This document shows positions 1 through 64,000 of a stretch of 64,000 nucleotides of DNA, in pieces. Both the position numbers and the translations under genes were made by a program. The notes under the pieces were generated by a model. It did not search any database. It had not been told where the DNA came from and saw only the letters and a program-made list of their open reading frames with translations. Source of the stretch: Chrysomallon squamiferum (Eukaryota > Animalia > Mollusca); assembly GCA_012295275.1 (NCBI GenBank), contig CM022665.1, forward strand, positions 48,360,001 to 48,424,000, in the 5' to 3' direction. Positions within the stretch are counted from its first letter, which is position 1. Every line of letters begins with the position of its first letter.

Positions 1-260
1 AGAACACCAGGTAAAACTCTTCTATTCCTTGTTTTACTAACAGAACAAAATTAATATTTTAAAATAAAGATTTCAAAGAACACCAGGTAAAACTCTTCTG
101 TTCCTGGTTTTACTAACAGAACAAAATTAATATTGTAATATAAAGAAATGAAAGAGCACCAGGTAAAACAGTTTTATATTTGTTTTAGTAACAGAACAAG
201 ATTAGTATTTTAATATAAAGATCTCAAAGAACACTAGGTAAAACAGTTTTATACTAGTTT
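1..260 (+). repeat. About 76-bp tandem repeat of an exon end plus donor (aaagaacaccag|gtaaaac), 4 copies
   Basis: Motif recurs near 1, 75, 151 and 226. KEHQ would join [10 protein letters not shown] in frame, so the first copy may be the real end of the preceding exon. Confidence 0.75.
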
Positions 261-637: not shown

Positions 638-644
638 GTAAGTA

Positions 645-749: not shown

Positions 750-3700
750 TTTATTTATTTATTTATTTATTTATTATTATTATTATTGATATTAAAATCA
801 TTATTATTTGGATATGCATATTATGATAGTTTATGTTATTATATAATTTATAGGAACTATTTTTAATCTCATAGGTAATATGTTAGTATTAATTGTATAT
901 ATATATAAAATTCATAATTTATGTTAATATACTAAAGATTAAAACACTTTTTAATCTCACTATCAATCTCTATTAACTGGAGTTAGAGTTATAATACTGT
1001 ATTGACAGTCTGGTTACTTTAAATGGATAAGTACATTTCTGTTTCTGTCTCACTGTAAGCTGGTATTGTGTGTGTGTGAAGTATAAGACATCCTATCAGT
1101 GTTTCTGTCTCACTGTAAGCTGGTATTGTGTGTGTGTGAAGTATATCACATCCTATCAGTGTTTCTGTCTCACTGTAAGCTGGTACTGTGTGTGTGTGTG
1201 TGAAGTATATCACATCCTATCAGTGTTTCTGTCTCACTGTAAGCTGGTACTGTGTGTGTGTGTGTGAAGTATATCACATTCTATCAGTGTTTCTGTCTCA
1301 CTGTAAGCTGGTATTGTGTGTGTGAGAAATCCTATCAGTGTTTCTGTCTCACTGTAAGCTGGTATTGTGTTGTACAGGTGGACAGCGATTGGCTGGCCTC
1401 ACAAAATAGAACGACAGATGGAACAGACGCACGCCCAGCTGGACGAGGACGAGGAGAGGTTCAGGAAGCTGCAGCAGTCTGACCAGACTAACTTTGAAGA
1501 CAGACTCGATACCCTGAGGGTAAACAACCAGAGTTATAACAAAAAAAATAATAATAAAACTGTGTTAATATAAGAATTCATACTTTACAAATATTTTTGG
1601 GAGATTTGTAAGTAAATATGTTCTGTAAATGTATAGGTAAATATTTTCTGTAGATATATAAGTAAATATTTTTTATAGATATATAAGTAAATATGTTTTG
1701 TAGATATATAAGTAGAAACGTTTTGTGTATATATATATATAAGTAAATATTTTTGTAGATATATAAGTAGATATGTATTGTATATATGTTTTGTAGATAT
1801 ATAAGTAAATATTTTTGTAGATATATAAGTAGATATGTTTTGTGGATATATAAGTAGATATGTTTTGTAGATATATAAGTAGATATGTTTGTGGATATAT
1901 AAGTAGATATGTTTTGTGGATATATAAGTAGATATGTTTTTAGATGGTTGTGGCTGGTATGGCTGCCCACGGAGAGAAGTCAAAGGCTCACGAGATCGCC
2001 AATGAAGTGAGGCGAGTGAACAAACAGCTCAAAGAGGCTCAGCAGCTTGCTCAGACTTACAACAACCGTGAGCGACTGTTTGGCATGCCTGTCACCAATG
2101 TAAGTCTCTTTATACACTCAGGTGTGGGTTTCTCAGGAGTCAGGTGTGTCTGTCAGGTGTGTCTGTCAGGTGTGTCTGGTGTGTTTCTCAGGTGTGTTCG
2201 TCAGGTGTGGTCTTGTGTGTGTCAGGTGTGTTTCTCAGGTGTGTCTTGTATGTATTTCAGGTGTGTATTGTGTGTGTCTTGTGTATTTATGTCAGGTATA
2301 TCTTGTGTGTGTTTTGTGTATGTCAAGTGTGTATTGGGTATGTATGTTAGGTATGTATAGTGTGTGACTGTTAGATATGGCGTGTGTGTAGTTTTGTTAG
2401 GTGTTTATTGTATACGTCTGTTGGTGTGTATTGTGTGTGATTTCAATATGTTTTGTGTGTGCTTGTTTAAAGAAATAGCATTCAAAGTTGTCACCCTCAG
2501 TCATGTAAAATGTACTGCAGGATATAGCACGTATCCTACAGTTAGTTATCTGTAGCATACCAACATGTATTACTCAAACAAAAACAGTTCAAAAATATTA
2601 CAAATCAAACAAGAAGGCACAAAATTATTCCACTAATCACTGCTTTGCTGTATTTTCTTAAAATAACTTCTCAAATATGAAATAATAGTTTTAACTGTTG
2701 TTTTATTTTCAAAACCAAAAACTCAGCGAATAGGATCGACTTTTCGTCAAGTGAGGATATCAGTGTTGTACATTCACAACATTCATATCTCTTGTCAACT
2801 GTACTTCTGTTGTTTTCACTGTGTTACAAATAAATGTGTCATTTCTCTAAACATTCCACTTCATCGAGGCATCTGTTTGAAAAGATAGCTATCACAAACT
2901 CACATTTTTTTGCTTATTAAAGAAATGTTTCATTTTAATATACGCAAGTCTTTTTCTGTCATGGTGTAGAAAGATTAAAATTACATGGGTTTTTTTAAAA
3001 TCTTTTATTTATAATTCATGTCACTTGACATACAGAAAAAAGGGACATCATCAATGCAATGAATTTATTTTTAAAATGAAATGGGTTTTGTTATAAAGAA
3101 AACAAATTATGACTGTTTGTGTCTGAGGATGTGTTCTAGTCTTTGTGTAACATGAGACTGACATGAATAAAACATTATATGTCTGTTCCATTCCATTTTT
3201 AACTCAGAAAATTAGTCACAAATGTATATTGACAGTTTAATCACACTTGGATATTAAGATAATTTACATAGGTAAGTTAGATTCTGTTTTTCAAGAAATC
3301 ACCACAATTACTGTATGAAAAATACCATCATATTAAAGCAATATTTTGTTTATAGTACAGAGCCATAACTGCATCAGTAGTGTATACGCAGTATACTGTC
3401 ATATAAAAGAGCTATACTCACAGTATACTGTCTTACTGAAATAGTGTATACACATTATACTGTCATATTGAAGTAGTAGTGTATATACAGTATACTGTCA
3501 TCCTGAGGTAGTGTACAAACAGTATGATGTTATACTGAAGTACTAGTGTATGCCACATTGAAGTAGTAGTATATGCACAGTATACTGTCATATTGAAGTA
3601 GTAGTATGTACAACATTCTATCATAGAAGTAACGTATACACATTATACTGTCATGTATGTTCAGTATACTATCATTCTTATAGCATGACAATATATTCTC

Positions 3701-6700: not shown

Positions 6701-9700
6701 AATCAATGCAGAGGATGTTGAAAAGAATGTCAATGAGGCATACAAGACAATGCACAAGTCTGTGAAAATATTCCAGGATATACCCAGTAAGTGTTATGAG
6801 ATGTATTCCAGGATTTTCCTGGTGTTTGTATTCCAGGATGTACATAGTGTTTGTATTAGAGCATGTACAGTAAGTGATTGTATTACAAAATATATCTAAC
6901 GTTTGTATTACAGTATATACCTAGTAAGTGTTTGTATTACAAGATATATCAAGTAGTTGTATTACAAAATATATGTAATGCTTAAGTTATAAGATATATC
7001 AGTAAGTTACAAAATATACCCAATAAGTGTTTGGATTACAAGATGCATCAAGTAAGTTGTTGGAGTACAAAATAATAATTATTAGTATTATAAAATATAC
7101 CAGTAAGTGATTGTATTACAAGATATACCAGACTGTTTGAATTACAACATATATCTAGTGTTTGTATTACAATTTACATTACTGAATGTGTCAATATTAC
7201 AAAATGCTGAAGGCAAGTTATTTTAATAATATTTTTTATTTAACTAATTTCCTTGTGTATTATTAACAAAGATATTAAATATTGAATGCTTTATTACTTA
7301 TCACTTCAGTTTAAAAAAAATTAATTTCAGTAATTGTGTTTAAATTAATAATTTTTCATGTTTTTATTTTATCATCATACAATATACAAAAATTAATATT
7401 AAATGTTTTGTTTTATTCTGTGTTCAGCAGGAAAACTGAACTGTATTTGTTTGAAATGTTTTCAGACGTTGAAACTTTTATGTTTTGTACATGGACTTCG
7501 TGTTTTGTGGTTTGTGTTTTTACATTCTGTACATTGTGTTTTATGTTGATAATTTGAAAGGTTGGAATGTAGACTGGGACAGTAAGAAATTACTTTCATA
7601 TACCACATTGTAGTTTTAAAATTTCACTATGTCTCACTTCACTGTCATTATAGTAAAAAGCAACAGATTAAAAACTTGGCTAGAATCAGTCATGTCTCAT
7701 TATGTAAATTCATGGGATCATCGTAATTCATTTCTAATATATTACTTTGCAGTTATAAACAGATAAAAACAGTAGGAAAATAACAGCAAGAAAATAGAAA
7801 ATTTTAGTAAATTGTAAAATCATGAACAGATTTAGTATTTCATTGTGATAATCTCCACAAGTTCTTCATGTATGTAAGACTATATTAGAGAAGATTCACT
7901 GGTCAGATTGGGAAATTAGGTAATGGTAGAATTTAATTATTGCATAGTTATCACTCGATAGATATAGAAACTAGTACATGTTATTTTTCCATAATGTTAA
8001 TGTGCACACATTACACTATCATAACACTTTTTTATACAGAGGTCACTGGTTAGATCTGGAAATTAGGTACTGGTAGAACATAATTATTGTGCAATTATCA
8101 CAGGATAGACTATTAGAAACCAGAACATGTTATTATTACACAGTGATAATATAAACTAGTTCTACTGATATATACCACTGTTCTAGAGATCTTTCACTGG
8201 TCAGATTGGGAAATTAGGCAGTTGTAGAACATAATTATTTTGTAGTTATCACTGGTTAGGATATAGAAATTAGTAATATGTTATTTCTACACAATGATAA
8301 TATACACAAGTTTTCTTGATATATAACACTCTTCTAGAGACCATTCACTGGTTAGATTGGGAAATTAGGTAATTGTAGAACATAATTATTGTGTAGTTTT
8401 CACTGGGTAGGATATTAAAACTAGTGAATGTAATTTGTACACAATATATGCAATACTGATAAATGCAAGTTACACACAGAAACACACATCAAACATACAT
8501 CACGTATACATATACATTCATACATACATATGAAAATACATATAGATACATACATACATGCATACATATAGACACATTCATACATACATGCGTATCTTAT
8601 ATTATCTTTTATTCTAGAATTCATCTTTAACATGTATCTCATTTAAACTACTCTTAATATTCAGATAATATCATGTTATCAATAGCATATCAGTGAAATA
8701 CAATTCATTTTAGATTTTTTTTTCATTTCAAAGTATAGGTTTTATTCTGTTTTCAAATTTACAGTTTTAGAACATGTTATTAAATAGACCAGTGTAAGTA
8801 TTTTCTCTTCAATGTGTAATGAAGAGTGACAGTGTGACAGATGTGTTTGTTGATGTTTGCAGGTGTGCAGCAGGTTGCCATGGAAATCAAGGGAGAGATT
8901 GAGGAGTTCAGACCAAAGATTCCTCTCATTCAGGGTCTGCGCAACCCTGGCATGCGACATCGTCACTGGGACCAGGTTAGCAGCCACACACACACACACC
9001 CATATATACATAAGTACACACCCATATACACCCATATATACATCCAGACAGACATACCCACACGCATATATACATACACTCAGACAGACAAACATACATA
9101 CACTCACTCAGACACACACACACACACACACCCAGACAGACATACATATACACACATACAGATGTAGACACACACAAACATATACACACATACAAACCTA
9201 TATACATAGAGACATACATACATACAATCAGACACACACACAGACAGACAGACACACAGACACAGATAATAATAATAATGTTTGTGTTAGCAGACAGTTG
9301 AATGTTTACGTCTCATCAAAATAAATCTGCAGTGTTTCAAACACAGTTTTATAAAACATTTTTTGACAGCTGTCCGAGGAGCTTGGCTTCCCACTGCAAC
9401 TGAAAGCAAACCTGACGTTCTCCAAGTGTTTGGAGATGAATCTGCAGGAGCACATAACAACCATCGCCAAGGTGGCAGAGGTGGCAGGCAAAGAGTACTC
9501 CATTGAGCAGGTGTGTAGTGTAAACACATCAGTGTGTTATACAAACATCACACTCAGAAAAAAAAAAATATATATATATATATTTATATATAAATAAAAA
9601 TCAGAAATAAAATGTACACACATTTAAAATAATCTTTGAGTCAAACTAGAAGTTACCTTGTTAAAATTTATTGTATTATTACATATATTCTTTTTTTTTT

Positions 9701-9807: not shown

Positions 9808-12725
9808 GTATTATTTTTATTATTATTGTTATTATTAAATAATGTTGTTTTGTTGTTTTTCCTTAGTTAATGTTATTAATATTATTACTTTTCATCATTA
9901 TCAATACTATTATTAGTACTGCTATTGTTATTAATGTCACTGTTTTTCATTATTATTATTATTAATATTACTATTATTATTGTAGTCTGTTGTTGTTGTT
10001 ACTATAACTATTATTATTATTACTATGATGTGACCAGGCTCTAGACAAGATGGAGAAGGAGTGGGAGCCAGTCATGTTTGAGATCATGCCGTACAAAGAG
10101 ACTGGGACTTTCATTCTCAAGAGTTCTGAGGACACGTCGCAGCTGCTTGATGACCACATCGTCATGACGCAGAGCATGTCGTTCTCACCGTACAAGAAAC
10201 CGTTCGAGGACCGCATCAACAGCTGGGAGGACAAACTGAGAACCACTCAGGTACAAAGTTCACACCTTGTGTGAAAACTTCACACTTCAATATTAAAATA
10301 TGCATGTGTAAGAATTTCATACTTAGAGTAAGAACGTCACAATGGCCAAAATATATGTGCAAAAATTGAACACTTTTCTGTAGAAATAAAGGGGGAAAAC
10401 TTCACTTTTCTGTACAAATGTGTGTAAAAACTTCACAGTGGCCAAATATAGCGGTAAAAATTGCATGCTTTTCTGTAAAAATAAAGGGGGAATGTTCACT
10501 TTTCTGTACAAATGTGTGTAAAAAGTTCACATTTTATGCAAACATGTGTATAAACTTCACATATTATGCAAAAATATGTGTAAAAACTTCACATTTTATG
10601 CAAAATATGTGAAAAAACTTCACATTGTAAATATTTCACACCTTGTTTAAACTCACTGAATTCATTCTCTGTTACAAACATGTTAAAACTGCACTGTGTA
10701 ATTAACTAACGGAATGTTTGAATTCTGCTGTCAGGACGTGCTGGATGAGTGGTTGCAGTGTCAGCGCTCGTGGCTCTACCTGGAGCCAATCTTCAGCTCG
10801 GAGGACATCAACAGACAGCTGCCTGTAGAGAGCAAGCGGTACCAGACCATGGAGAGGATGTGGCGCAAGATCATGAAAAACGCCAAGGAAAACCCTCAGG
10901 TATAGGCTTATAATATTTAAAATGTTTAGCAAATGTTTAGACAGACAGACAGACAGACACACACACACACGTATGTATGCTGAGACACACTAAAACATAT
11001 ATACACTCACAAGCATACACACAGACACACACCCAAGCACATGCACACAGACATATGCATGCAACTCAGACACACACATAAACACAGACACATACAAACA
11101 CACAAACTTATATATGCACACACACACACACACACACAGACATGAGCTTACACAAATGCACACAGACACACACTGAATCAGATACAGATACACACAAAAT
11201 TGACATTAATGATTTATTTTTTCTAATTTAATTTATATTTTGCTATAACACATTTTACTGTGACTGTTTCTGTATAGGTGATTTAATTTATATTTTGCTA
11301 TAACAAATATTACTTTGTTTCTGTACAGGTGATTTCTCTGTGTCCAGACAACCGACTGCTGGACAACCTGCGTGAGTCAAACAAACTGCTGGACCAGGTG
11401 CAGAAGGGACTCAGCGAGTACCTGGAAACCAAGAGAACAGCCTTCCCACGATTCTACTTCCTGTCCGATGACGAACTCCTGGAGATTCTCTCTCAGACCA
11501 AAGACCCAACTGCAGTCCAGCCTCATCTTAGGAAATGTTTTGAAAACATTGCCAAGGTAAAGACAGAGCTGTTTTGTCGTTGTTATCACTTTCACTGTAT
11601 CTGTATTAACAGTATTGTTCGTTCATTATTATACCAGTATCAAAGTCATAAAAAAACTGATTTATCATTGACACTGTGTTTGCAGTAATGTGTTTGTCTT
11701 GTGTTGCAGCTCAGATTTGAGGATGACACAAAGACAAAAGTGATTTATCAGTGACACTGTGTTTGCAGTAATGTGTTTGTCTTGTGTTGCAGCTCAGATT
11801 TGAGGATGACACAAAGACAAAAGTGATTTATCAGTGACACTGTGTTTGCAGTAATGTGTTTGTCTTGTGTTGCAGCTAAGATTTGAGGATGACACAAAGA
11901 CAAAAGTGATTTATCAGTGACACTGTGTTTGAAGTAATGTGTTTGTTTTGTGTTGCAGCTGAGATTTGAGGATGACCTGAAGATAACGAGGATGTACTCG
12001 GGGGAGGGGGAGGAGGTTGAGTTCCGTGAGTCGCTGTATCCAAACGGCAACGTGGAGGACTGGATGCTGGAGATTGAGCGCACAATGAAAGAGAGTCTCA
12101 GAATGATCATCAAAGACTCACTCAATGATTACAAAACTGTGAGTAACTCACACTACTTTTATCATCATTGACACAAAACTGTGAGTCATTCACATCATTT
12201 ATTATCATTTAAACAAATCTGTGAGTAACTCACATTACATTAGCATAAAATTGTGAGTCACTCACATCACATTTACACAAAACTGTGAGTCAGTCACACT
12301 ACTGTATTATCATTAACACAAAACTGTAAGATATATTTATCATAACTAACATTTTTATACTACTTATTTCTCACCTATTATTAGCTACTTAATACCTGAA
12401 CTTCAGATTTTACTACAATTTTATTATGTAATGGTTCTTACCTTCAGTTTTCACCTATAACTGACTACAATCATTCTCACTATAAAATACTTGTGTCGTA
12501 ATTAAAATACTTTTTTATTTCACTTGTTTCTCACCTGTTATTATACTTAATTATTACCAGTACTTCAGATTTTAATTTGTAATGGTTCTTAACTCTGGTA
12601 TTCATTCATATATTACTGAATATACTAATTCTCTCTATAAAATACCTGTTTATTCTAATTATTACCTCTAGTTTCCATTTTACTGAATGAAATCACTGCT
12701 AACAAGAAATTATATATATTTATTA

Positions 12726-12756
<31 letters not shown>

Positions 12757-43624: not shown

Positions 43625-43662
<38 letters not shown>

Positions 43663-43765
43663 TTTCACTCATGTTAATTGTTTTTAACTCTGTGTCTGTG
43701 TTGTGACTGTTCTCGGGAGTGAAAGTGGATGACTACTGGTAGTGGTAGTAGTGGTAGTAGTAGTG

Positions 43766-43811
<46 letters not shown>

Positions 43812-43960
43812 CAGTATTAGCAGTATTTCACTCACATGTTTAATGTTAACTCTGTGTCTGTGTTGTCACTGTAGCCGGGAGTGAAAGTGGATGACTACTG
43901 GTAGTGGTAGTAGTAGTAGTTGTAGTAGTAGTAGTAGTAGTAGTGGTAGTAGTAGTAGTT

Positions 43961-43995
<35 letters not shown>

Positions 43996-51600: not shown

Positions 51601-54600
51601 AGTTAAAATAAGCCTGGGCAAAACAAAATTTTATAAAACCTTAAAGTAGAACATGCTATATTAAAATGTCATTGTGTATTAGAATTATTTTCATTTGTTT
51701 TTTAGTTATCGACAAACAAAGTTGATAAATAATAACTTTATTACAATCGTTAGAGTACAACATATGTTATTATTTTAACAATGCATACAAGAAATATTTT
51801 GATGGTAGGATTTCAGAAGAAATGGAGTCCTATCATTACAAAATAAAACCAAAGCAAAAAATGAAAAAAATATTAAAGAAACAATGAAATGACCAAAAAA
51901 TACTTTGTTGAAAGAAGTTGAACAAAGAATGTTTACTTCTTCTCTCTGTATAGTTGAAGTAAATTTAAATATTTGTTTCATTATTTTCAAACACAGTGTT
52001 ATAAAGTTGACAGTACAAGATGCATTATTAATACTTCTTCTGTTTCTGAGGTTGAAGTAAATTTAAATATTTTTCATCATTATTTTCAGACACGATACCG
52101 AAACGTATTGAAAACATCAACAAGTTCTTCACATTCAGCTTGTACAGCAACGTCTGTCGCAGCTTGTTTTAAGAAACACAAGCTGCTGTTTGAGAAACAT
52201 CAAGATGCACTGGACTCTTCGACATGGTAAACACCATCTCTTTGTTTACTTAGTAAACATCATTTAGAATCAAGATGCATCATTTAATTGTTTACAATGG
52301 ACTCATCGACATGGTAAAAACATCATTTAAACATTTAATTGTTTACATAGAAAACATCATTTAATTGTTTATATAGTAAACTCATTGACATGATAAACAT
52401 CATTTAATTGTTTGCATAGTAAACTCACCAAAATGATAAACATTATTCAGTTGTTTCCATTGACTCTTTGACATGGCATACATTATGTAATTGTTTATAT
52501 ACGTGCTCATCAACATGGCAAACACTGAAGAAGATAAAATATTATATTCCAACATTTACTGTTATGCATATGTATGTTAGTGGTTTTTTTGTACATTGTT
52601 AACCTTGTTGTTAAATGTGTGTGTTAGGATGAGTGGAGGTTTCTGATAGCTGGAGGAACAGTAAAGCCAGAAGAACTAGAAAACCCTGCACATGAGTGGT
52701 TGTCTGAGAGATCCTGGAATGACATACTCACCCTTCCAGCGCTTCCAAAGTTTGCTGAGTTTGCTAAAGACTTTCAGAACAACCTCGACGGATTCAAAGT
52801 AATCTTTGACAGTCCAGAACCTCACAGGTTTGTTCTCAGATTTCAGTTTATAACTTTTTAGTTGATTATCTGCTTTCTGTTTAGTGTTAGTTTCAAAAAA
52901 ACATTTATTTAATAACGCCAGGGAAGACTTAATTCATTTTCTGAACCTACTGAATCACATTTATTATTTTTCTGTCTACAGCTATAAGATATCTGTACCA
53001 TTTATTTAATAGCACCATTGAAGACTTGATTCATTTTCTGTTTTATATATATTGGCATATTTTCAGACATAATCTTTTTTACATATGTGTTTTCTCATTG
53101 TCTGAATTACCATTGTTAAGCATCCTCAGGTCACTTTGATGACTAATCCAAGTTTAACCAAGATGTACATACATCTCACTAAAACTCATACATCTTATAA
53201 TTAATTGTTAGTGAACTGAGCAAAATTCTCAATTTTTATTAAAATAAAATAGTTGAAAGTTGTTAAATTGTATTAGTGAACTAAGTAAAATCTGTTTTAT
53301 TAAAATAAAATATTTGTTAAGTTATCTGACACAGTAAAACTGTTTTAACGTCACAGAGAGCAGCTGCCTGGTTCGTGGGCAGAAAGTCTGGACAAGTTCC
53401 AGGCAATGATTGTCCTCAAGTGTCTCAGACCAGACAAAGTGTCAGATGCAAACTGTCTCATTGCATGAGCCACAGGACTTAGTGTGTTTGTTTTGTAAAA
53501 AAGAGTTTACTGTTGTGTTGTGTGTACAAAGATTCATAGAGCCACAGGTACTTAGTGTGTTTGTTTTGTAGAGAGAGAGAGAGTTACTGTTGTGTTGTGT
53601 ATAGACAAATAATTATGTTTTGAATGTAAAGGTGTACATAATATAGAGAGAGACATTTAATTGTAATATTTATAGAAGTACTTGATTATTTCATTCAGTG
53701 TTACACATTTAAATATTACATTAATAGAGATGTAGTAATTATTGTGTTGTTTATAGACACTTGTAATTATTGTGTTGTTTCTGTTGAGAGAGTTTATTAT
53801 TGTGTTGTTCATAGACACAGTTTCTTATTAATGTTTTTGATTAATGCATCATTTATAGAAACACAGGTAATTATTCTGTTGTCTAAATGTTTCAGACATC
53901 TGACCTTCACCTGGTATACAAGGACTCCTCACCCACCACACCCCTTGTGTTCGTCCTGTCCCAGGGAACTGACCCTGCAGCTGACCTCTACAAGTTTGCT
54001 GAAGAGATGAGATTTTCAAAGAAGCTGTCAGCCATCTCACTGGGACAAGGACAGGTTAATTTATTTTTAATATTTTAAATCTTCTATCATGAGACACTAG
54101 TTCAAAACTAAAACTCACTATACAGCTGAAATTTCAAAGCATTCTGACTGAAATTTTCATCATTATTGTTTTATCATGTTAAATATTTTTTTTTAACACA
54201 GATGTTAATTCTTGTAAATTACTTTGAGTTTTTTTTATTGTTATATATTTTTATGTTTGTCTTGTTATTACAAATTATTTCAGATGTTAATAAAGAGTTT
54301 TTCTTTAGTTTAATTTTACATGTTTATGATTTTTATGTAAAGATTTGTCTTGTTGCACATATTTACACTGTTAAACAGCATCTGAAAACCAAGGCAAACT
54401 GTGAAATGAGTTTTTGCCATGTTTTTATATTTTAATTAGTATTTGTCTTGTTATAAACAAAGATAATAAAGACTGAGTTTTGAGTTTTATATGTTTTATA
54501 TATTTACATTGTCTTATTACACACATGTTAATAAAGACTGTACTGAGTTTTACATGTATTTATATATTTTTATATTTGTCTTGTTACACAGGGCCCGCGA

Positions 54601-57428: not shown

Positions 57429-60400
57429 TAATAATGATAATGTTATTTACAGCCTATTTTCTACCTATTGTCATTCATTAATTATTTTATGCATATACAT
57501 ACATACTTACACACATACTTACACACTTCTATATTATATTATTATTCTGAAAAAATTGTCCAGTTTCTTAAATGAATGACACTTTTTCTGTAAGTGTTTA
57601 AAAACATTATTGAAATTATCAAGCAGTCTATATTAACATAATTTTCTATTTGTTCATATAGAAAATAAAATTATTGTAGATGGTTAGTCTGTATTCATGT
57701 TTCATACTTTTACATATTATTTTACTACATTTTACATCTTTAGTTTATATGTATATAATTTTTTATTGCCTTTTTTCTTTTTTCTTTTTTTTTTAAATTT
57801 ATGTTTCATATTTTTATTGTATATTTCCTTTATAATTCTTTGTATTTTTATATATTTCATCTTTACTACAGTTATTTTTAATGTTTCATATTTTTATAAT
57901 ATATTTTATTTATATGAATATATTTTTTATATAGCATAGCAACTATTTCAGATTTAATATACTATATCAGATATATTTTATATATAACATAACAGCTATT
58001 TATAATACTATATAAGATATATCTTACATATAACATAATTATTTCATATTTACAATGCTATAACAGCTATTTCAGATTTATGATATTATATCAGATATAT
58101 TTCATAAATAACATAGCAGTTATTTCAGATTTTAAATACAATATTAGATATATTTTGTATTTAATATAAAAACTATTTCAAATTTATAATGCTATATATT
58201 TTAAATATAACAACTATTTCAGATTTACAATATTTTAAATATTTCAGAATGCTGCATATTTTAACTATCTCAGAATTCTGTGTATTTTAAATATTTCAGA
58301 TTTACTACACTGTACATTTTAACTTTTCAAATATTTCTATTTCAGATTTGTATTTGAACTATTTCAGAACACTTTTAAATATTTCAGAACACATTGTGTA
58401 TTTTTAACTATTTCAGAACACTGTGTATTTTTAACTATTTCAGAAAACTGTGTATTTTAAATATTTCAGAACACTGTGTATTTTAACTACACTGTATTTC
58501 ATTTTAAAATATTTCAGAACACATTGTATTTGAACACTGTGTATTTCAAATATTTCAGAACACATTGTATTTTTAACTATTTCAGAAAACTGTGTATTTT
58601 TAAATATTTCAGATTTAACTACAGAATGCTGTGTGTTTTTAAATATTTCAGAACGCTGTGTATTTTTAACTATTTCAGAACTCATTGAGTATTTTTAACT
58701 ATTTCAGAAAACTGTGTATTTTTAAATATTTCAGAACGCAGTGTTTATTTAACTATTTCAGAACGCTGTGTACATTTTAAATATTTAACTATTTCAGAAC
58801 GCTGTGTATTTTTAACTATTTCAGAACTCAGTGTATTTTTAACTATTTCAGAACGCTGTGTATTTTTAACTATTTCAGAACACATTATTTAACTATTTAA
58901 CTATTTTTAACTATTTCAGAACACTGTGTATTTCAAATATTTCAGAACACATTGAGTATTATTTAACTATTTCAGAACACTGTGTTATTTAACTATTTCA
59001 GAACACTGTGTATTTTAACTATTTCAGAACACTGTGTATTTAGTATTATTTAACTATTTCAGAACACTGTGTATTATTTAACTATTTCAGAACACTGTGT
59101 ATTATTTAACTATTTCAGAACGCTGTGTATTTTAACTATTTCAGAACGCTGTATATTTGAACTATTTCAGAACGCTGTGTTCAAACACCTGCTGCTGTCG
59201 CTGTGTTTCTTCCACGGAGTGAGCATTGAGAGGAGGAAGTTTGGCCCGCTGGGTTTTAACATCCCCTACGAGTTCACTGACGGAGACCTGAGAATCTGCG
59301 TCAGTCAGCTGAAGATGTTCCTCAACGAGTACAGCGACATCCCCTTCAAAGTAACAGCTTCCTTCTTCTTTGCTGCTGTCACAGACAGCTCTTCTTTTAG
59401 TTGTTCGAGTGATACATTTTAACTTGAATGTTATTTGTTATTCATGTGCTGAAATTTAGCTTCAGTATTATTTGTTATTCATGTGTTAGAATTTAGCTTC
59501 AGTATTATTTGTTATTCATGTGTTAGAATTTTGTTTCAATATTATTTGTTATTCATGTGTTAGAATTTAGTTTAACTATTATTTGATATTCAGCTGTTAA
59601 GTAAATATTGTTTAATTATTCAGCTTAAATAAATGTTATTTGTTATTCAGGTGTTAAGTAAAGATTGTTTAATTATTCAGCTTAAATAAATACTGTTTAT
59701 TATTCAGGTATTAAAATTCGACTTAAAATATGTTGTTAATTACTCAGGTGTTAAGTAAATGTTGTTAATTACTCAGGTGTTGAAGTACACTGCTGGACAC
59801 ATCAACTACGGCGGCCGCGTCACGGACGACTGGGATCGTCGCACGCTGATGAACATCCTCAACGACTTCTACTCGCCGGACGTCCTCAGTGACGAGCACG
59901 TTTACTCAGAGACTGGAATCTACCGCCAGATCAGCGCCTCACAAGACCATAATGTAAATATGTGATGCACCCCACCTGTGTTGTCATAGAGACGAAAACC
60001 TCCACCTTACTGACAGCACTAGTAACACTCTAGTCACTTTACTGTATAAATACTAACATACTAGTGTCTTTACTATATAAATAATTCTACTAGTCACTTT
60101 ACTATATAAATAATACTACTAACACTCTAGTCACTTTACTGTATAAATACTAACATACTAGTGTCTTTACTATATAAATAATTCTACTAGTCACTTTACT
60201 ATATAAATAATTCTAACTAGTCATTTTACTATATAAATAATTCTACTAGTCACTTTACTATATAAATAATACTACTAACACTAGTCACTTTACTATATAA
60301 ATAATACTACTAACACACTAGTGACTTTACTATATAAATACTACTACTAACACACTAGTCACTTTACTATATAAATAATTCTACTAGTCACTTTACTATA

Positions 60401-62779: not shown

Positions 62780-64000
62780 ATATTATTATTATTATTATTA
62801 TCTCTTTGTTAAATAAACGTTATTTTTCTCAGGGCTTATTGTCATACATATTATTATTATTATTATTATTATCTCTGTTGTTACTGGTGTTAACTAAATG
62901 TGATATTTCTCAGGGCTACATGTCCTACATCAAAATTATTATTATTATTATTATTAATATTATTATTATTAAGTATTATCTCTGTTGTTAACTAAACGTG
63001 ATATTTCTCAGGGCTACGTGTCCTACATCAAAAGTCTTCCCATCAATGACACTCCAGAGATATTTGGTCTTCACGAAAACGCTAACATCACATTTGCCCA
63101 GAATGAGACAGCAATGCTGCTGTCAGGTCTGCTGGAACTTCAGCCCAAAACAGCAACGGGCGGCGGCCACTCCAGGGAGGAGGTAAGACACACCCTTGTT
63201 GTAAATTTTAATACTTGTACTTGATTTGAGTCTTATGGATGAGAAAATAGCAAACGTAATTATTGTGACATGTTGGACAGTGGGATTTTGCCAAAATTTT
63301 AATATTTTCAATTTGATATTAGTTCCATTGGATAAAAATGACATAGTTAATTACTGTGTCATGTTGAATGTTGGGTTTTTGCAGAAATTCTAATATTTGT
63401 ACTTGAATTGAGTTTCATGGATAAAAAAAATAACAAACATAATTATTATGTCATATTGGATGGAAAAACATTTTGGCAAAAAATTAATATTTATATTTGA
63501 TTTTTGTTTCATGGATATAAAAATGACATAGTTAATTACTGTGTCATGTTGGATGGTGGGTTTTTGCAGAAGTTTTATTATTTGTACTTGAATTGAGTTT
63601 CATTGATAAAAATAGCGTAGGTAATTATTGTGTCATGTTGGAGGATGGAACTTTGCAGAAATGTTGATTATGAGTTTCATGGATAAAACTAACACAGATA
63701 ATTGTTGTTTGTTGTTGGAGGGAGGCTATTTGCAGAAATTTTAATATTTCTACTCAATTTGAATCATAGATAAAAAAAAAAATAACATATAAATATTGTA
63801 ACTTTTGTGTGTTTAAAAAATAAATGATGTGCAGTTTAAAGACTTAATATTGTAGCTCTCTCTGTTATTTGGTTTGGGTTTTTTTGACATGTGTGTTTGC
63901 TGTAATTAATTTTGTGTTTAAAAAGGTTGTAAAGAAACACCAGGTATCTAACTGTGGTCTTCTTGTTTTGTTATCAGATCACAGAGGAAATGGCTAGACA
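555..64000 (+). CDS. DNAH1: Axonemal dynein heavy chain 1-like gene, spliced and partial (about 57 exons; 5' and 3' ends outside the window)
   Basis: The spliced translation has the P-loops GPAGTGKT (AAA1), GPTASGKT (AAA2), GPTGTGKT (AAA3) and GMGGSGRQ (AAA4), plus CFDEFNRI, the stalk/MTBD and AAA6 motifs. Segments such as [20 protein letters not shown] and [15 protein letters not shown] match my recollection of vertebrate DNAH1. Confidence 0.93.
1036..1370 (+). repeat. About 60-bp minisatellite with variable (TG)n, ending at the w2 acceptor
   Basis: gtttctgtctcactgtaagctggtattgtgtg occurs 6 times. Confidence 0.9.
1378..1519 (+). CDS. DNAH1: Exon w2 ([13 protein letters not shown]...RLDTLR)
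   Basis: tacag|G...AGG|gtaaac, phase 2-0. Confidence 0.9.
1590..1946 (+). repeat. About 28-bp minisatellite ending in the w3 acceptor
   Basis: gatatataagtagatatgttttgta(g) about 12 times. Confidence 0.9.
1944..2099 (+). CDS. DNAH1: Exon w3 (MVVAGMAAH...FGMPVTN)
   Basis: ttttag|ATG...AAT|gtaagt, 156 nt. Confidence 0.9.
3375..5470. repeat. Intronic satellite of about 34-bp palindrome-rich monomers arranged in about 0.8-kb higher-order repeats
   Basis: Monomer gaagtagtagtgtatacacagtatactgtaataat; marker ttcagtatactatcattcttatagcatgac at about 3661, 4448 and 5299. Confidence 0.9.
6588..6786 (+). CDS. DNAH1: Exon w4 ([14 protein letters not shown]...FQDIP)
   Basis: ttccag|TAC...A|gtaagt, phase 0-1. 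Confidence 0.92.
6787..7175 (+). repeat. Degenerate about 30-bp repeat derived from the w4 donor
   Basis: Recurring atatacc(c)agtaagtg...tgtattaca. Confidence 0.7.
7850..8430. repeat. About 150-bp tandem repeat, 4 diverged copies
   Basis: tcactggt(c/t)agattgggaaattagg at about 7895, 8043, 8193 and 8345. Confidence 0.85.
8863..8975 (+). CDS. DNAH1: Exon w5 (VQQVAMEIK...GMRHRHWDQ)
   Basis: ttgcag|GT...CAG|gttagc, phase 1-0. Confidence 0.92.
9370..9510 (+). CDS. DNAH1: Exon w6 (LSEELGFPL...AGKEYSIEQ)
   Basis: gacag|CTG...CAG|gtgtgt, 141 nt. Confidence 0.92.
10038..10250 (+). CDS. DNAH1: Exon w7 (ALDKMEKEW...KLRTTQ)
   Basis: accag|GCT...CAG|gtacaa, 213 nt. Confidence 0.92.
10735..10899 (+). 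CDS. DNAH1: Exon w8 ([20 protein letters not shown]...ENPQ), linker
   Basis: gtcag|GAC...CAG|gtatag; WLYLEPIF dynein motif. Confidence 0.95.
11329..11556 (+). CDS. DNAH1: Exon w9 (VISLCPDN...[17 protein letters not shown]...ENIAK)
   Basis: tacag|GTG...AAG|gtaaag; FPRFYFLS motif. Confidence 0.95.
11655..11976 (+). repeat. 83-bp tandem repeat carrying the w10 acceptor and the first 18 exon nt
   Basis: tgttgcag|ct(c)agatttgaggatgac with AG ending at 11709, 11792, 11875 and 11958. Confidence 0.95.
11959..12138 (+). CDS. DNAH1: Exon w10 (LRFEDDLKI...[11 protein letters not shown]...DYKT)
   Basis: ttgcag|CTG...ACT|gtgagt, 180 nt; acaaaact|gtgagt is copied about 5 times downstream to about 12330. 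Confidence 0.93.
12851..13152 (+). CDS. DNAH1: Exon w11 ([15 protein letters not shown]...IEVHARDVV...WISQLR)
   Basis: gacag|CGG...AG|gtctgt, phase 0-2. Confidence 0.93.
13655..13970 (+). repeat. About 60-bp repeat ending at the w12 acceptor
   Basis: gtgtttgttaaacactattagtac about 5 times. Confidence 0.8.
13977..14093 (+). CDS. DNAH1: Exon w12 (YYWLEDEN...[20 protein letters not shown])
   Basis: ttgcag|G...CG|gtcagt; start of AAA1. Confidence 0.95.
14417..14507 (+). CDS. DNAH1: Exon w13, AAA1 Walker A ([12 protein letters not shown])
   Basis: gacag|A...AAG|gtgagt. Confidence 0.96.
14831..14928 (+). CDS. DNAH1: Exon w14 ([21 protein letters not shown]...KGLAS)
   Basis: ttcag|GAC...AG|gtaaag, phase 0-2. 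Confidence 0.95.
15400..15800. repeat. About 32-bp degenerate repeat upstream of exon w15a
   Basis: aatgtgtttacacactgacaacaca repeated. Confidence 0.8.
15827..15932 (+). CDS. DNAH1: Exon w15a, AAA1 Walker B ([35 protein letters not shown])
   Basis: ttgcag|T...AGG|gtgaga, 106 nt, phase 2-0. Confidence 0.93.
17359..17464 (+). CDS. DNAH1: Exon w15b, paralogous alternative AAA1 Walker B exon ([35 protein letters not shown])
   Basis: ctctag|T...AAG|gtacat, 106 nt, phase 2-0, open frame. Confidence 0.85.
17470..17790. repeat. 39-41-bp minisatellite with an internal inverted repeat, about 8 copies
   Basis: cttgtgttgtgtttcactgggcatggaacaacacacatgg; tgtgttgt is the reverse complement of acaacaca. 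Confidence 0.92.
19048..19297. repeat. 11-bp tandem repeat before the w16 acceptor
   Basis: a(a/g)ctgtgtta(a/c) about 20 times. Confidence 0.9.
19312..19425 (+). CDS. DNAH1: Exon w16 (VDRFIFEG...[19 protein letters not shown]), AAA1 sensor I
   Basis: tttcag|GTT...AAA|gtaaaa. Confidence 0.95.
20015..20164 (+). CDS. DNAH1: Exon w17 ([13 protein letters not shown]...SEQLSSQ)
   Basis: ttgcag|GCT...CAA|gtaagt. Confidence 0.95.
20763..20849 (+). CDS. DNAH1: Exon w18 ([14 protein letters not shown]...PDMDE)
   Basis: actag|GAT...GAG|gtttgt. Confidence 0.94.
21408..21514 (+). CDS. DNAH1: Exon w19 ([16 protein letters not shown]...SDLFPNIK)
   Basis: tctag|GAG...AA|gtaagt. Confidence 0.94.
21515..22000 (+). 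repeat. Tandem duplications (146 and 215 bp spacing) containing the last 44 nt of w19 and its donor
   Basis: aaactgttcagtggtattgtgtctgatctgtttcctaacatcaa|gtaagt ending at 21660 and 21875. Confidence 0.92.
22150..22655. repeat. Degenerate short-unit tandem repeat
   Basis: aaaa(c/t)tgtcactttgaatagttt motif recurring. Confidence 0.7.
23201..23280 (+). CDS. DNAH1: Exon w20 ([10 protein letters not shown]...LKDVD)
   Basis: tttcag|A...G|gtaaaa, phase 2-1. Confidence 0.9.
23640..24100 (+). repeat. 128-bp tandem repeat carrying the w21 acceptor and about 40 exon nt
   Basis: ttcag|gttttatcaagaagt...actg with AG ending at 23679, 23807, 23935 and 24059. Confidence 0.93.
24060..24151 (+). CDS. DNAH1: Exon w21, AAA2 P-loop ([17 protein letters not shown])
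   Basis: ctcag|GT...AAG|gttagt. Confidence 0.95.
24650..24804 (+). CDS. DNAH1: Exon w22 (CYQILQKAM...[21 protein letters not shown])
   Basis: cacag|TGT...TG|gtaagt. Confidence 0.94.
24747..25070 (+). repeat. 79-bp tandem repeat made of the last about 57 nt of w22 plus its donor, 4 copies
   Basis: ...ctcactcacgaatg|gtaagt ending at 24804, 24883, 24962 and 25041. Confidence 0.95.
25267..25444 (+). CDS. DNAH1: Exon w23 ([10 protein letters not shown]...[25 protein letters not shown]...)
   Basis: tacag|G...GAT|gtgagt. Confidence 0.95.
25986..26180 (+). CDS. DNAH1: Exon w24 ([26 protein letters not shown]...DQFLQ)
   Basis: tctag|GGA...CAG|gtttgt. Confidence 0.95.
26677..26796 (+). CDS. DNAH1: Exon w25 (PVIKFVRNH...FSPFIPKE)
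   Basis: gtcag|CCT...GAG|gtactt; the acceptor lies in an 8-bp duplication. Confidence 0.88.
27938..27955 (+). CDS. Candidate 18-nt microexon (ARQRRV)
   Basis: ctgacttgcag|GCTCGACAACGCAGAGTG|gtaaga; phase 0-0 matches the host intron; GC-rich island in AT-rich intron. Confidence 0.65.
29005..30035. repeat. About 40-42-bp minisatellite with drifting variants
   Basis: tgtagattttatctcactcagaagaatttatcttcattactttg and derivatives. Confidence 0.85.
30100..30129 (+). CDS. Candidate 30-nt microexon ([10 protein letters not shown])
   Basis: About 40-nt pyrimidine tract, then tttag|ACA...TTT|gtgagt; phase 0-0. Confidence 0.65.
31009..31167 (+). CDS. DNAH1: Exon w26 (GEKPIPEY...[17 protein letters not shown]...REHN)
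   Basis: accag|GGA...AAT|gtaaaa. Confidence 0.92.
31626..31739 (+). CDS. DNAH1: Exon w27 ([14 protein letters not shown]...AKSKE)
   Basis: tgtag|GTT...GAG|gtaaac. Confidence 0.92.
32109..32249 (+). CDS. DNAH1: Exon w28 (VQWRSWM...[11 protein letters not shown]...NKKT)
   Basis: aacag|GTT...ACA|gtaagg. Confidence 0.93.
32380..32540 (+). CDS. DNAH1: Exon w29, AAA3 P-loop ([12 protein letters not shown]...KLDKR)
   Basis: ttcag|GTA...AG|gtgggt. Confidence 0.95.
32952..33283 (+). CDS. DNAH1: Exon w30 ([10 protein letters not shown]...FIDDLNMP...[12 protein letters not shown]...GPPGGGRN...)
   Basis: cacag|A...G|gtgtgt, 332 nt. Confidence 0.96.
33488..33985 (+). repeat. About 45-51-bp repeat carrying the w31 acceptor
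   Basis: gtgtttgtgttgttacag|atcagtc about 10 times. Confidence 0.9.
33970..34148 (+). CDS. DNAH1: Exon w31 (QSQSLKEHC...[23 protein letters not shown]...KIT)
   Basis: ttcag|AT...ACT|gtaagc. Confidence 0.93.
34700..34936 (+). CDS. DNAH1: Exon w32 ([23 protein letters not shown]...PDHEK)
   Basis: ttcag|AAC...AAG|gtgaat. Confidence 0.93.
35478..35674 (+). CDS. DNAH1: Exon w33, AAA4 P-loop (LVRVLEEY...[23 protein letters not shown])
   Basis: aacag|CTG...AT|gtaagt, phase 0-2. Confidence 0.95.
36062..36200 (+). other. Remnant of expected exon w34 (…CFQIEL…), mostly unreadable
   Basis: tttcag|ggca...tgtttccagattgagctg encodes CFQIEL; the remainder is absent; flanking phases (2 and 0) require an exon here. 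Confidence 0.7.
36130..37000 (+). repeat. 58-bp minisatellite
   Basis: tgtttgacatcagtctttacaaatgtctttattcaagtaactgtaatttgtatctcag about 14 times; the 5' copies are degraded. Confidence 0.9.
37248..37456 (+). CDS. DNAH1: Exon w35 ([23 protein letters not shown]...NLHTVITMS)
   Basis: ttaaag|ATC...AG|gtgagt; about 38-bp donor copies follow to about 37680. Confidence 0.93.
37886..38057 (+). CDS. DNAH1: Exon w36 ([25 protein letters not shown]...NGL)
   Basis: aacag|T...CTG|gtcagt. Confidence 0.94.
38372..41234 (+). repeat. 45-bp minisatellite (about 65 copies, with 37- and 43-bp variants) made of the w37 acceptor plus the first 14 exon nt
   Basis: tgtttgataatgtgtgtttacctgtgtgcag|gtgtcagtgtgtca; the last copy runs into the exon. 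Confidence 0.97.
41221..41412 (+). CDS. DNAH1: Exon w37 ([11 protein letters not shown]...[11 protein letters not shown]...KTGLDK)
   Basis: tgcag|GTG...AAG|gtgaaa. Confidence 0.94.
41762..42155. repeat. 39-bp minisatellite, about 10 copies
   Basis: aggaagatatttaaaataatcagatattgtgtatta. Confidence 0.9.
42181..42300 (+). CDS. DNAH1: Exon w38, stalk CC1 ([15 protein letters not shown]...ISVDT)
   Basis: ttcag|CTG...ACT|gtaagt. Confidence 0.93.
42375..42767 (+). repeat. About 33-bp repeat carrying the w39 acceptor sequence
   Basis: tgatattttcag|tctagtagtagatataatgta about 11 times. Confidence 0.88.
42768..42894 (+). CDS. DNAH1: Exon w39 ([14 protein letters not shown]...TQAIA...LNE.LPAL), 3' half frameshifted or garbled
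   Basis: ttcag|GCT...CTG|gtcagt spans 127 nt, not a multiple of 3; conserved words fall in different frames. Confidence 0.7.
43384..43533 (+). CDS. DNAH1: Exon w40 ([18 protein letters not shown]...IPGDK), MTBD
   Basis: ttcag|GAC...AAG|gtttga. Confidence 0.94.
43625..44137 (+). repeat. Copies of the w41 start interleaved with (GTA)n microsatellites
   Basis: cgggagtgaaagtggatgactactgg at about 43714 and 43876, each followed by (tag)n. Confidence 0.9.
44111..44563 (+). CDS. DNAH1: Exon w41 ([13 protein letters not shown]...[14 protein letters not shown]...RLTRADK), MTBD and CC2
   Basis: tgtag|CCG...AAG|gtgagt, 453 nt. Confidence 0.95.
44533..45525 (+). repeat. About 105-130-bp repeat made of the last about 30 nt of w41 plus its donor, 9 copies
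   Basis: gtgtgaggccag(g/a)ctgactagagctgacaa(g/a)|gtgagtt. Confidence 0.93.
45811..45942 (+). CDS. DNAH1: Exon w42 ([12 protein letters not shown]...IAYLGPFS)
   Basis: tacag|CTG...TCA|gtgagt. Confidence 0.94.
46258..46497 (+). repeat. 40-41-bp repeat carrying the w43 acceptor, 6 copies
   Basis: gttgactgtttgtgttccag|ggtgaat. Confidence 0.92.
46492..46737 (+). CDS. DNAH1: Exon w43 (GEYRADM...[12 protein letters not shown]...[19 protein letters not shown]), AAA5
   Basis: ttgcag|GGT...ATG|gtgagt. Confidence 0.95.
47460..47609 (+). CDS. DNAH1: Exon w44 ([11 protein letters not shown]...[13 protein letters not shown])
   Basis: cacag|GAA...CAA|gtatgc; degenerate cttagacaagt repeats follow to about 48280. 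Confidence 0.94.
48320..48695. repeat. About 66-bp tandem repeat
   Basis: gtatcttattaacaaatgaatg...aacatttcactata about 5 times. Confidence 0.8.
49682..49842 (+). CDS. DNAH1: Exon w45 ([14 protein letters not shown]...[12 protein letters not shown]...NFTLSPS)
   Basis: ctcag|ACG...AG|gtgagt. Confidence 0.95.
49950..50312 (+). repeat. About 35-bp repeat carrying the w46 acceptor plus 11 exon nt
   Basis: gtattgcatgttacag|tggtttagaag|gtaatatt about 10 times. Confidence 0.88.
50302..50527 (+). CDS. DNAH1: Exon w46 ([20 protein letters not shown]...SMEIK)
   Basis: tacag|T...AAG|gtttgt. Confidence 0.95.
51018..51213 (+). CDS. DNAH1: Exon w47 ([14 protein letters not shown]...[12 protein letters not shown]...AERA)
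   Basis: ttcag|GCG...G|gttagt; about 26-bp donor-derived repeats follow to about 51590. Confidence 0.95.
52090..52226 (+). CDS. DNAH1: Exon w48 ([26 protein letters not shown]...KHKLLF...DM), 3' third garbled
   Basis: ttcag|AC; in-frame TAA after RSLF; KHKLLF in another frame; gacatg|gtaaac donor copied downstream. Confidence 0.75.
52628..52827 (+). CDS. DNAH1: Exon w49 ([10 protein letters not shown]...[12 protein letters not shown]...FDSPEPHR)
   Basis: gttag|GAT...AG|gtttgt. Confidence 0.94.
53357..53547 (+). CDS. DNAH1: Exon w50 (EQLPGSW...[11 protein letters not shown]...RFIEPQ), 3' part garbled and end uncertain
   Basis: cacag|A; the frame reaches TGA near 53466; agattcatagagccacag|gtactt (RFIEPQ) at 53530-53547. 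Confidence 0.7.
53896..54054 (+). CDS. DNAH1: Exon w51 ([27 protein letters not shown]...ISLGQGQ), AAA6
   Basis: ttcag|ACA...CAG|gttaat. Confidence 0.95.
54592..54723 (+). CDS. DNAH1: Exon w52 (GPRAEAMM...[10 protein letters not shown]...DPDK)
   Basis: cacag|GGC...AAG|gtcaga. Confidence 0.95.
55290..55463 (+). CDS. DNAH1: Exon w53 ([11 protein letters not shown]...[10 protein letters not shown]...ACGDK)
   Basis: gttag|GTT...AAG|gtgagg. Confidence 0.95.
56425..56433 (+). CDS. Candidate 9-nt microexon (KDK)
   Basis: tgtgtgtttcag|AAAGACAAG|gtaaaa, phase 0-0. Confidence 0.45.
57935..59180 (+). repeat. About 30-bp minisatellite made of the w54 acceptor plus 10 exon nt, decaying upstream
   Basis: tttaactatttcag|aac(g/a)ctgtgtatt at least 25 times. 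Confidence 0.92.
59171..59350 (+). CDS. DNAH1: Exon w54 ([16 protein letters not shown]...[16 protein letters not shown]...DIPFK)
   Basis: ttcag|AAC...AAA|gtaaca. Confidence 0.95.
59428..59786 (+). repeat. About 30-35-bp repeats carrying the w55 acceptor
   Basis: ttgttattca(g/t)gtgtta and ttactcag|gtgtt. Confidence 0.8.
59777..59953 (+). CDS. DNAH1: Exon w55 ([22 protein letters not shown]...SQDHN)
   Basis: ctcag|GTG...AAT|gtaaat. Confidence 0.95.
60015..61000. repeat. About 30-37-bp AT-rich minisatellite, interrupted at about 60710-60855
   Basis: ctagtcactttactatataaata(atactactaacaca) repeated. Confidence 0.9.
60732..60854 (+). mobile_element. 3' fragment of a Tc1/mariner-superfamily DNA transposon
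   Basis: [12 protein letters not shown] (60732-60770) resembles mariner-type transposase C-termini; it is followed by ...aacctacttttgggccaccctg|TA, a CAGGGTG-type TIR end with a TA target. Confidence 0.7.
62800..63032 (+). repeat. Copies of the w56 acceptor plus about 20 exon nt, separated by (ATT)n
   Basis: tttctcag|ggctac(a/g)tgtcctacatcaaa with AG ending at 62832, 62913 and 63011. Confidence 0.88.
63012..63182 (+). CDS. DNAH1: Exon w56 ([27 protein letters not shown]...SREE)
   Basis: ctcag|GGC...GAG|gtaaga. Confidence 0.95.
63200..63800. repeat. About 88-bp diverged tandem repeat
   Basis: ttgagtttcatggataaaaa...aattattgtgtcatgttgga about 6 times. Confidence 0.75.
63978..64000 (+). CDS. 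DNAH1: Exon w57, partial (ITEEMAR...)
   Basis: ttatcag|ATC; continues SREE in frame. Confidence 0.75.

What the first reader, a model, noticed from the sequence alone, without database searches (positions are those of the whole stretch)
1..63032. Splice junctions as terminal units of polarised tandem repeats (decoy splice-site arrays)
Seen: about 25 junctions are the end unit of a private tandem repeat (unit 8 to about 200 bp, 2 to about 65 copies). Acceptor arrays lie upstream and the exon uses the last copy (w3, w9, w10, w21, w25, w31, w37, w39, w41, w43, w46, w54, w55, w56). Donor arrays lie downstream and the exon uses the first copy (window start, w4, w10, w19, w22, w35, w41, w44, w47, w48, w50). 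Copies often keep AG/GT plus 10-57 nt of coding sequence and decay with distance from the exon. Inference: a junction-associated duplication process drives intron growth, and splicing must choose the exon-proximal site among identical competitors, implying strong exon definition. The polarity alone is expected from survivorship of an intact exon; the apparent enrichment at junctions is the part that needs testing. I do not know whether this has been described in this lineage.
Basis: partly seen in the sequence, partly recalled or inferred. Interest (0 to 1): 0.85.

Follow-up and report, generated by a model that had tools for sequence, protein, structure and literature searches.

The report
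Splice-border "mirage" repeats in dynein gene
About a fifth of the exon borders of an animal's ciliary dynein gene have been copied head to tail into the neighbouring intron, a known kind of repeat ("mirage") that here is likely a by-product of very repeat-rich introns, and the three borders that RNA could check are spliced at the normal site.

Summary
The window is a DNAH1-type axonemal dynein gene (61 exons). At 23 of 120 borders I scored tandem copies that keep AG or GT, 153 decoys in all. Polarity is complete. This is the "mirage" minisatellite of amphioxus and the human F7 intron-7 VNTR; the scan has found it before on other DNA (annelids, clam, urchin, sharks, camelid).

Enrichment is weak. 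Introns are 40% minisatellite. Borders are duplicated less often than raw intron sequence (14 of 118 against 38.5%) and 0.6-1.5 times as often as a copy-collapsed null, mostly not significant. Two signals remain: arrays end 2-3 times too often in the last 40 nt before acceptors, and border arrays are more homogeneous (88% against 80%).

RNA contigs use the exon-proximal site at 3 of 3 array borders covered; contigs cannot show rare decoy use. 152 of 153 decoys would give a stop or frameshift. Verdict: a dense new member of a known kind, with a testable hint of acceptor-side bias.

The parts
1..64000 (+). DNAH1-type axonemal dynein heavy chain gene, internal part: 61 exons or exon pieces, median intron 555 nt, median exon 156 nt
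1..276 (+). Donor array at 10/11, unit 76 nt, 3 decoys, GT kept in 3 of 3
1589..1945 (+). 25-nt array ending at acceptor 1944; only about 2 nt of exon match (weak case)
6769..7172 (+). Degenerate donor array at 6786, GT kept in 2 of 3
11226..11335 (+). Acceptor duplication at 11329, one decoy 51 nt upstream; RNA contigs of X8 and X9 splice at 11329
11653..11976 (+). Acceptor array at 11959, unit 83 nt x 3.9, 18 nt of exon, AG kept in 3 of 3; an X8 RNA contig splices at 11959
12131..12302 (+). Donor array at 12138, unit about 40 nt, GT kept in 3 of 3; spanned by one X1 DNA contig; an X8 RNA contig splices at 12138
20154..20365 (+).
21471..21905 (+). Donor array at 21514, 2 decoys with 44 nt of exon each
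23640..24099 (+). Acceptor array at 24060, unit 124-128 nt, 40 nt of exon, AG kept in 3 of 3
24748..25079 (+). Donor array at 24804, unit 79 nt x 4.2, 57 nt of exon, GT kept in 3 of 3, in-frame stop right behind the real donor
26661..26682 (+). 8-nt duplication at acceptor 26677; the upstream AG would shift the frame
   Evidence: sequence
33473..33985 (+). Acceptor array at 33970, unit 43-50 nt, AG kept in 9 of 10
35340..35535 (+). Decayed single copy of acceptor 35478 with about 58 nt of exon; AG lost
37427..37690 (+). Donor array at 37456, unit about 38 nt, 30 nt of exon, GT kept in 3 of 5
38372..41234 (+). Largest acceptor array, at 41221: 45/37-nt unit x 66, AG kept in 61 of 65 decoys, no gradient
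42375..42770 (+). Acceptor array at 42768, unit 33 nt, 0-4 nt of exon
43680..44140 (+). Acceptor copies at 44111 (spacing 236 nt, about 30 nt of exon) separated by GTA microsatellite
44524..45525 (+). Donor array at 44563, unit about 115 nt, 31-40 nt of exon, GT kept in 8 of 8
45690..45845 (+). Decayed single copy of acceptor 45811; AG lost
46258..46499 (+). Acceptor array at 46492, unit 41 nt, AG kept in 5 of 5
47600..47691 (+). Donor-derived array at 47609; copies have lost GT
49966..50312 (+). Acceptor array at 50302, unit 35 nt, AG kept in 3 of 7
51205..51582 (+). Donor array at 51213, unit about 26 nt, degenerate
52208..52501 (+). Donor array at 52226, GT kept in 1 of 4
53532..53880 (+). 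Donor copies at 53547, in a garbled exon; uncertain
58240..59180 (+). Acceptor array at 59171, unit about 26 nt, about 26 decoys, identity falling with distance (rho -0.55)
59625..59787 (+). Acceptor array at 59777, 2 or more decoys
62805..63033 (+). Acceptor array at 63012, 2 decoys with 17-22 nt of exon, padded by TTA microsatellite

Best explanation
These are 'mirage' minisatellites, tandem copies of exon-intron borders that likely arise as a by-product of a high, roughly position-blind rate of short tandem duplication in this animal's introns. When a duplicated unit crosses a border, the exon is left owning the end copy (last for acceptors, first for donors), which gives the polarity (shown); unequal exchange or slippage then likely changes copy number (inferred). 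The spliceosome takes the exon-proximal site (shown at 3 borders), likely by exon definition and first-donor scanning as tested in human F7 (inferred). Stray decoy use would almost always give a stop or frameshift and would likely be cleared by nonsense-mediated decay (predicted), so the arrays are tolerated. The excess of array ends just before acceptors likely reflects the longer constrained zone there (branch point and pyrimidine tract), which keeps the end copy from being deleted or eroded (inferred).
For: 40% of intron bases lie in minisatellites of period 8 or more, and 62 of 78 merged arrays do not touch a border. The share of duplicated 20-mers falls steadily from about 0.37 inside introns to 0.10-0.13 at borders and about 0 inside exons, with no peak. 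Border-crossing copies match a copy-collapsed null: 14 of 118 against 0.11, p=0.88; gapped test against intronic AG and GT sites 14 of 57 against 0.23 and 11 of 60 against 0.32; with border arrays masked 14 of 118 against 0.078, p=0.12, and gapped p 0.21-1.0. Copy numbers at borders and inside introns do not differ (5.6 against 4.1-5.0, p 0.37-0.51). RNA contigs join 10899-11329 (X8, X9), 11556-11959 and 12138-12851 (X8); no joint to a decoy is among the 14 listed. 120 of 121 acceptor and 32 of 32 donor decoys give a stop or frameshift. The gene is under purifying selection: 14 of 14 exonic variants shown are synonymous (48 further rows were not shown). The same anatomy is described in PMC3087553, PMC3902484 and PMC1557585.
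Against: Array ends are 2-3 times over the null 10-40 nt upstream of acceptors (12 of 46 against 0.11, p=0.003; it holds with an intron-weighted null, p 0.01-0.02; 3-fold with border arrays masked). The repeat-finder permutation gives 9 acceptor-crossing arrays against 5.1 (within intron, p about 0.06) or 3.6 (gene-wide, p=0.007). Border arrays are more homogeneous than deep-intron arrays (88% against 80-81.5%, p 0.006 or lower under four filters, not explained by GC), which position-blind birth with equal lifetimes does not predict. One gene only; several overlapping tests; RNA evidence is contigs at depth 3-9 for 3 of 23 arrays.
Confidence: 0.68

Rival explanations
1. Junction-biased birth ('conveyor belt'): the 3' end of introns is a hot spot where new tandem duplications keep arising from the preserved border unit, and older copies are pushed into the intron and decay, so splice-site regions drive intron growth.
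For: 2-3-fold excess of array ends before acceptors; homogeneity ordered border 88 > near-border 82.5 > deep 80; identity to the real copy falls with distance in 10 of 15 arrays; by eye, arrays at 57889-58300, 59431-59714 and 47621-48300 look like older versions of the neighbouring border unit; border arrays make 19% of intron DNA.
Against: Border-crossing copies themselves are not significantly enriched; no donor-side excess (5 against 5.1 and 3.6); decay with distance is generic to tandem arrays and the distal copy is the limit of recognition by construction; the 66-copy array has no gradient; at 19/20 or more matches the acceptor excess is seen at only one of three offsets.
Confidence: 0.22
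2. The arrays, or many of them, are assembly artefacts of low-coverage long-read consensus.
For: Four coding stretches are garbled or missing, each beside an array (about 36060, 42800-42894, 52150-52226, 53440-53547). Only 10000-16290 was laid, and on contigs, not raw reads.
Against: One X1 contig spans the donor array 12131-12302 with 5 differences in 731 nt; contigs of X1 and of X2 (another study) break at the same places inside the 11226 and 11653 arrays, as repeats would make them. Copies carry shared diagnostic variants and 75-97% identity.
Confidence: 0.05
3. The decoys are a functional control: regulated use of upstream or downstream copies tunes dynein mRNA through nonsense-mediated decay, and copy number acts as a dial.
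For: AG and GT are mostly kept (61 of 65 in the largest array) and 152 of 153 decoys would end the frame.
Against: AG columns are no better kept than their neighbours (62 and 59 of 66 against 61-66 for the near-invariant columns); AT-rich introns give stops by default; each array is private and of different unit and age; no decoy joint is listed in two RNA runs (weak).
Confidence: 0.05

Closest known systems
Amphioxus 'mirage' minisatellites (Adh3; globins BflGb6 and BflGb9, PMC3087553; troponin C and PGBD5, PMC3902484)
   Same: Tandem units that span an exon-intron border on either side, many keeping AG/GT, with normal splicing. Units of 10-72 nt (Adh3) and 150-160 nt (globins) and 81-100% identity are reported; here 8-236 nt and 75-100%.
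   Different: Here 23 of 120 borders of one gene in a probably molluscan genome, up to 66 copies against 3-6 in the globin case, and tested against a null. Somatic instability was not tested here. The original paper (Canestro 2002) was not held; it is known to me through these two papers and recall.
Human F7 intron 7 37-bp VNTR (PMC1557585)
   Same: First unit holds the real donor, five to nine identical pseudo-donors follow, only the most upstream is used.
   Different: A single donor-side case with mutational proof; here more arrays are acceptor-side, where 5'-to-3' scanning alone would favour a decoy, and the mechanism is untested.
Ordinary intronic minisatellites (VNTRs) of the same gene
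   Same: Same unit sizes and copy numbers; unit-length differences between individuals appear in such arrays (31-nt skip in X8, 36-nt step back in X1).
   Different: Border arrays hold splice signals and are more homogeneous.

Membership tests
Mirage minisatellite | Tandem repeat whose unit spans an exon-intron boundary | tested here: met
   16 acceptors and 12 donors of 120 borders by gapped search, plus 26677 and 44111 seen otherwise
Mirage minisatellite | Copies duplicate the splice signal (many, not all, keep AG/GT) | tested here: met
   153 decoys with AG or GT at 23 borders; others have lost it
Mirage minisatellite | Normal splicing is kept; the authentic copy is used | tested here: met
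Mirage minisatellite | No aberrant mRNA from decoys | tested here: inconclusive
   no decoy joint listed, but contigs drop rare forms
Mirage minisatellite | Length instability between alleles or cells | tested here: inconclusive
   unit-length differences seen only in arrays that do not cross a border; the 83-nt array is not spanned by any listed contig
F7-type donor VNTR | Pseudo-donors are functional but silenced by position (shown by mutation) | not testable with these tools
   needs minigenes; PMC1557585 Discussion
   not met for border-crossing 20-mers and gapped copies; met at about 2-fold for acceptors in the repeat-finder permutation and for the last 40 intron bases
Axonemal dynein heavy chain, DNAH1 type (host gene) | Stalk and AAA domains; best named hits are dynein heavy chain 1, axonemal | tested here: met
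   no tree was built

The most novel reading that the evidence does not exclude
In this lineage the 3' end of the intron is a recurrent birthplace of tandem duplications: the preserved acceptor unit keeps seeding new arrays while older copies slide into the intron and decay, so introns grow outward from their own splice sites, and splicing ignores up to 65 near-identical upstream acceptors at almost no cost.
Probability: 0.22. Interest if true: 0.7.

Novelty: new member of a known kind. Interest (0 to 1): 0.38.

Why it matters
As an ordinary case it shows that mirages can reach about a fifth of the borders of one conserved gene, and that they occur at about the rate that blind duplication predicts, so decoy sites seem to cost little. 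That makes the gene a natural test bed for how an acceptor is chosen among identical upstream competitors, the mirror of the F7 donor case. If the acceptor-side excess and the greater homogeneity hold genome-wide, they would point to a mutational or survival bias that ties intron growth to splice-site anatomy. Such arrays also matter in practice: they can mislead gene models and assemblers.

Tried and rejected
Genome-wide test: no whole genome is held for this window, so all statistics rest on one gene. Raw intron background as the null: rejected as unfair, because a border can hold only an end copy; it is reported (depletion) but the collapsed null is used. The masked null uses spans I drew after seeing the arrays and leans towards enrichment; the unmasked one leans against it. 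GC content as the cause of the higher homogeneity: rejected (rho 0.08). Pseudogene with relaxed selection: rejected by 14 of 14 synonymous variants and spliced RNA contigs of 3.6 and 3.9 kb. Selective erosion of decoy AG: not seen. Contig depth over the 83-nt array (X1 about 140 against about 60-70, X2 not raised) is not used as copy number. Uncovered bins in RNA runs (X8 covers 18 of 30 bins, X9 11 of 30) say nothing. Only 10000-16290 was laid, which leaves 20 of the 23 scored arrays, the second copy of the duplicated exon, the microexons and the garbled exons without read evidence. Rows left out of the 153-decoy count: one weak 8+5-nt copy at 441 (in frame, no stop), the garbled donor 53547, and copies without AG/GT. 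Canestro 2002 was not held. PMC2812944 (outline only) and PMC10078293 (four passages) added nothing. Paper searches listed no mollusc case and no count against a null; the library lacks most subscription papers. Scripts stopped with errors after printing the results cited; the rest was rerun.

Full report
What the window is. The whole window is the inside of one + strand gene for an axonemal dynein heavy chain. A 151-residue exon finds 105 proteins at E 1e-30 or better; the best is from the bivalve Solemya velum (82%), and the named hits are mostly dynein heavy chain 1, axonemal. Pfam gives the stalk and an AAA domain in 2 of 3 exons scanned. I read 61 exons by coordinate: every acceptor ends in AG and every donor starts with GT; 33 exons join into 1710 codons without a stop, and three further segments are also open. 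A mollusc is likely from that best hit; no tree was built. No whole genome is held.

The observation. Tandem Repeats Finder gives 276 rows; minisatellites of period 8 or more cover 40% of the 54,617 intron bases and 3.4% of exon bases, in 78 merged arrays. A gapped search finds copies of the border in the adjacent intron at 16 of 60 acceptors and 12 of 60 donors; two more (26677, 44111) are plain in the sequence. At 13 acceptors and 10 donors I scored 121 and 32 copies that keep AG or GT. Polarity is complete, 11 of 11 and 9 of 9, and shuffled introns give no hit in 5 of 5. Decay with distance holds in 10 of 15 arrays and not in the 66-copy array.

Are they real? Eleven runs were listed, nine holding part of the query, from three studies. 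Four were laid on 10000-16290, all as assembled contigs. One X1 DNA contig spans the donor array at 12131-12302. X1 and X2, from different studies, both break at 11276 and 11697-11698, inside the two acceptor arrays, as repeats would make them. X1 may be the window's own source. Arrays outside 10000-16290 have no read support here. Four coding stretches are garbled or missing beside arrays, so local assembly error is likely in this window.

Are they enriched? The share of 20-mers with a near copy falls from about 0.37 in introns to 0.10 at acceptors and 0.13 at donors and to about zero in exons, with no peak. Against raw background borders are depleted (14 of 118 against 0.385, p=2e-10). That null is unfair, since a border can hold only an end copy. 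Counting each array as one unit, the null is 0.11 and borders match it (p=0.88; 0.16-1.0 over six settings). A gapped test against 450 intronic AG and 450 GT sites gives 14 of 57 against 0.23 and 11 of 60 against 0.32 (p 0.86 and 0.06). With border arrays masked out of the null, the ratio is about 1.5 for 20-mers (p 0.05-0.24) and about 1.0-1.4 for gapped copies (p 0.21-1.0). A permutation of repeat-finder arrays gives 9 acceptor-crossing arrays against 5.1 within introns (p about 0.06) or 3.6 gene-wide (p=0.007), and 5 donor-crossing against 5.1 or 3.6. So border-crossing copies are at most mildly enriched, and only at acceptors.

What does not fit plain chance. End copies are 2-3 times over the null 10-40 nt upstream of acceptors (12 of 46 and 12 of 45 against 0.11-0.13, p 0.003-0.015), and mostly not downstream of donors. 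Border arrays are more homogeneous than deep-intron arrays: 88% (n=16) against 82.5% near borders (n=12) and 80% deep (n=38), p 0.006 or lower under four filters, and GC does not explain it. Copy numbers do not differ. I read this as survival of the constrained branch-point and pyrimidine zone plus faster turnover, but a real birth bias is not excluded. These are several overlapping tests on one gene.

How splicing copes. RNA contigs join 10899 to 11329 (X8, X9), 11556 to 11959 and 12138 to 12851 (X8): the exon-proximal copy in 3 of 3 array borders covered, and no joint to a decoy among the 14 listed. Contigs show presence, not absence. Of 153 decoys, 152 would give a stop or a frameshift; clearance by nonsense-mediated decay is my inference from general knowledge. 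In the largest array the AG columns are kept in 62 and 59 of 66 units, no better and not clearly worse than their neighbours. All 14 exonic variants shown are synonymous, so the gene is working and relaxed selection is not the cause.

What is known. [quoted passage not shown] PMC3902484 (one passage) adds troponin C and PGBD5. PMC1557585 (abstract and Discussion) shows by mutation that the F7 pseudo-donors are functional but only the most upstream is used. The original mirage paper was not held. No supplements were read; those of PMC3087553 hold the copy alignments and could bear on the comparison of gradients. Seven searches listed no mollusc case and no test against a null. The scan's own notes list eight similar findings in other genomes, none in this genome and none with an enrichment test under the words I used; these are unchecked notes, and I had the mirage reading before seeing them.

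Verdict. Observation confirmed; interpretation partly supported. It works like a mirage and meets the three features that could be tested; two more are inconclusive. What is added is density (23 of 120 borders, about 19% of intron DNA by hand-drawn spans), evidence that decoys are close to cost-free, and a testable hint of acceptor-side bias. New member of a known kind; interest 0.38.

Noticed in passing
window 15827-15932 and 17359-17464: Tandem pair of 106-nt exons, same phase, 78 of 106 nt identical, both AG/GT, both encoding the [11 protein letters not shown] stretch (recalled as the Walker B motif of the first AAA domain). Using both would shift the frame, so they are likely mutually exclusive exons. 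One paper search listed nothing on this; no RNA check.
   Followed up: partly
window 27938-27955, 30100-30129, 56425-56433: Three candidate in-frame microexons of 18, 30 and 9 nt with AG/GT borders; the first two add 16 residues that the gar protein P0061 lacks, so they are likely optional. No RNA check.
   Followed up: partly
window about 36060, 42800-42894, 52150-52226, 53440-53547: One exon of about 45 codons is missing (a short remnant at about 36060) and three exons are garbled by clustered indels, each beside an array; likely assembly error.
   Followed up: partly
window 44564-45525: Six of 8 donor decoys share a G-to-A change at the last exon base, which would weaken them; probably one event spread by later duplication.
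   Followed up: no
window 25075-25125: Right behind the donor array at 24804 lies a fragment of about 30 nt copied from inside the next exon (25267), so this intron holds remains of duplications from both of its ends.
   Followed up: no
window 57889-58300, 59431-59714, 47621-48300, 54270-54590: Deeper arrays look by eye like older versions of the neighbouring border unit; whole short introns seem built from them.
   Followed up: partly
window 10371-10626 and 13697-13969: Arrays that do not cross a border differ in length between individuals: a 31-nt unit missing in X8, 55 nt missing in X1, a 36-nt step back in X1.
   Followed up: no
window 43560-44090 and 62850-62990: Microsatellites (GTA, TTA) have expanded inside the border unit between copies, giving unequal spacing.
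   Followed up: no
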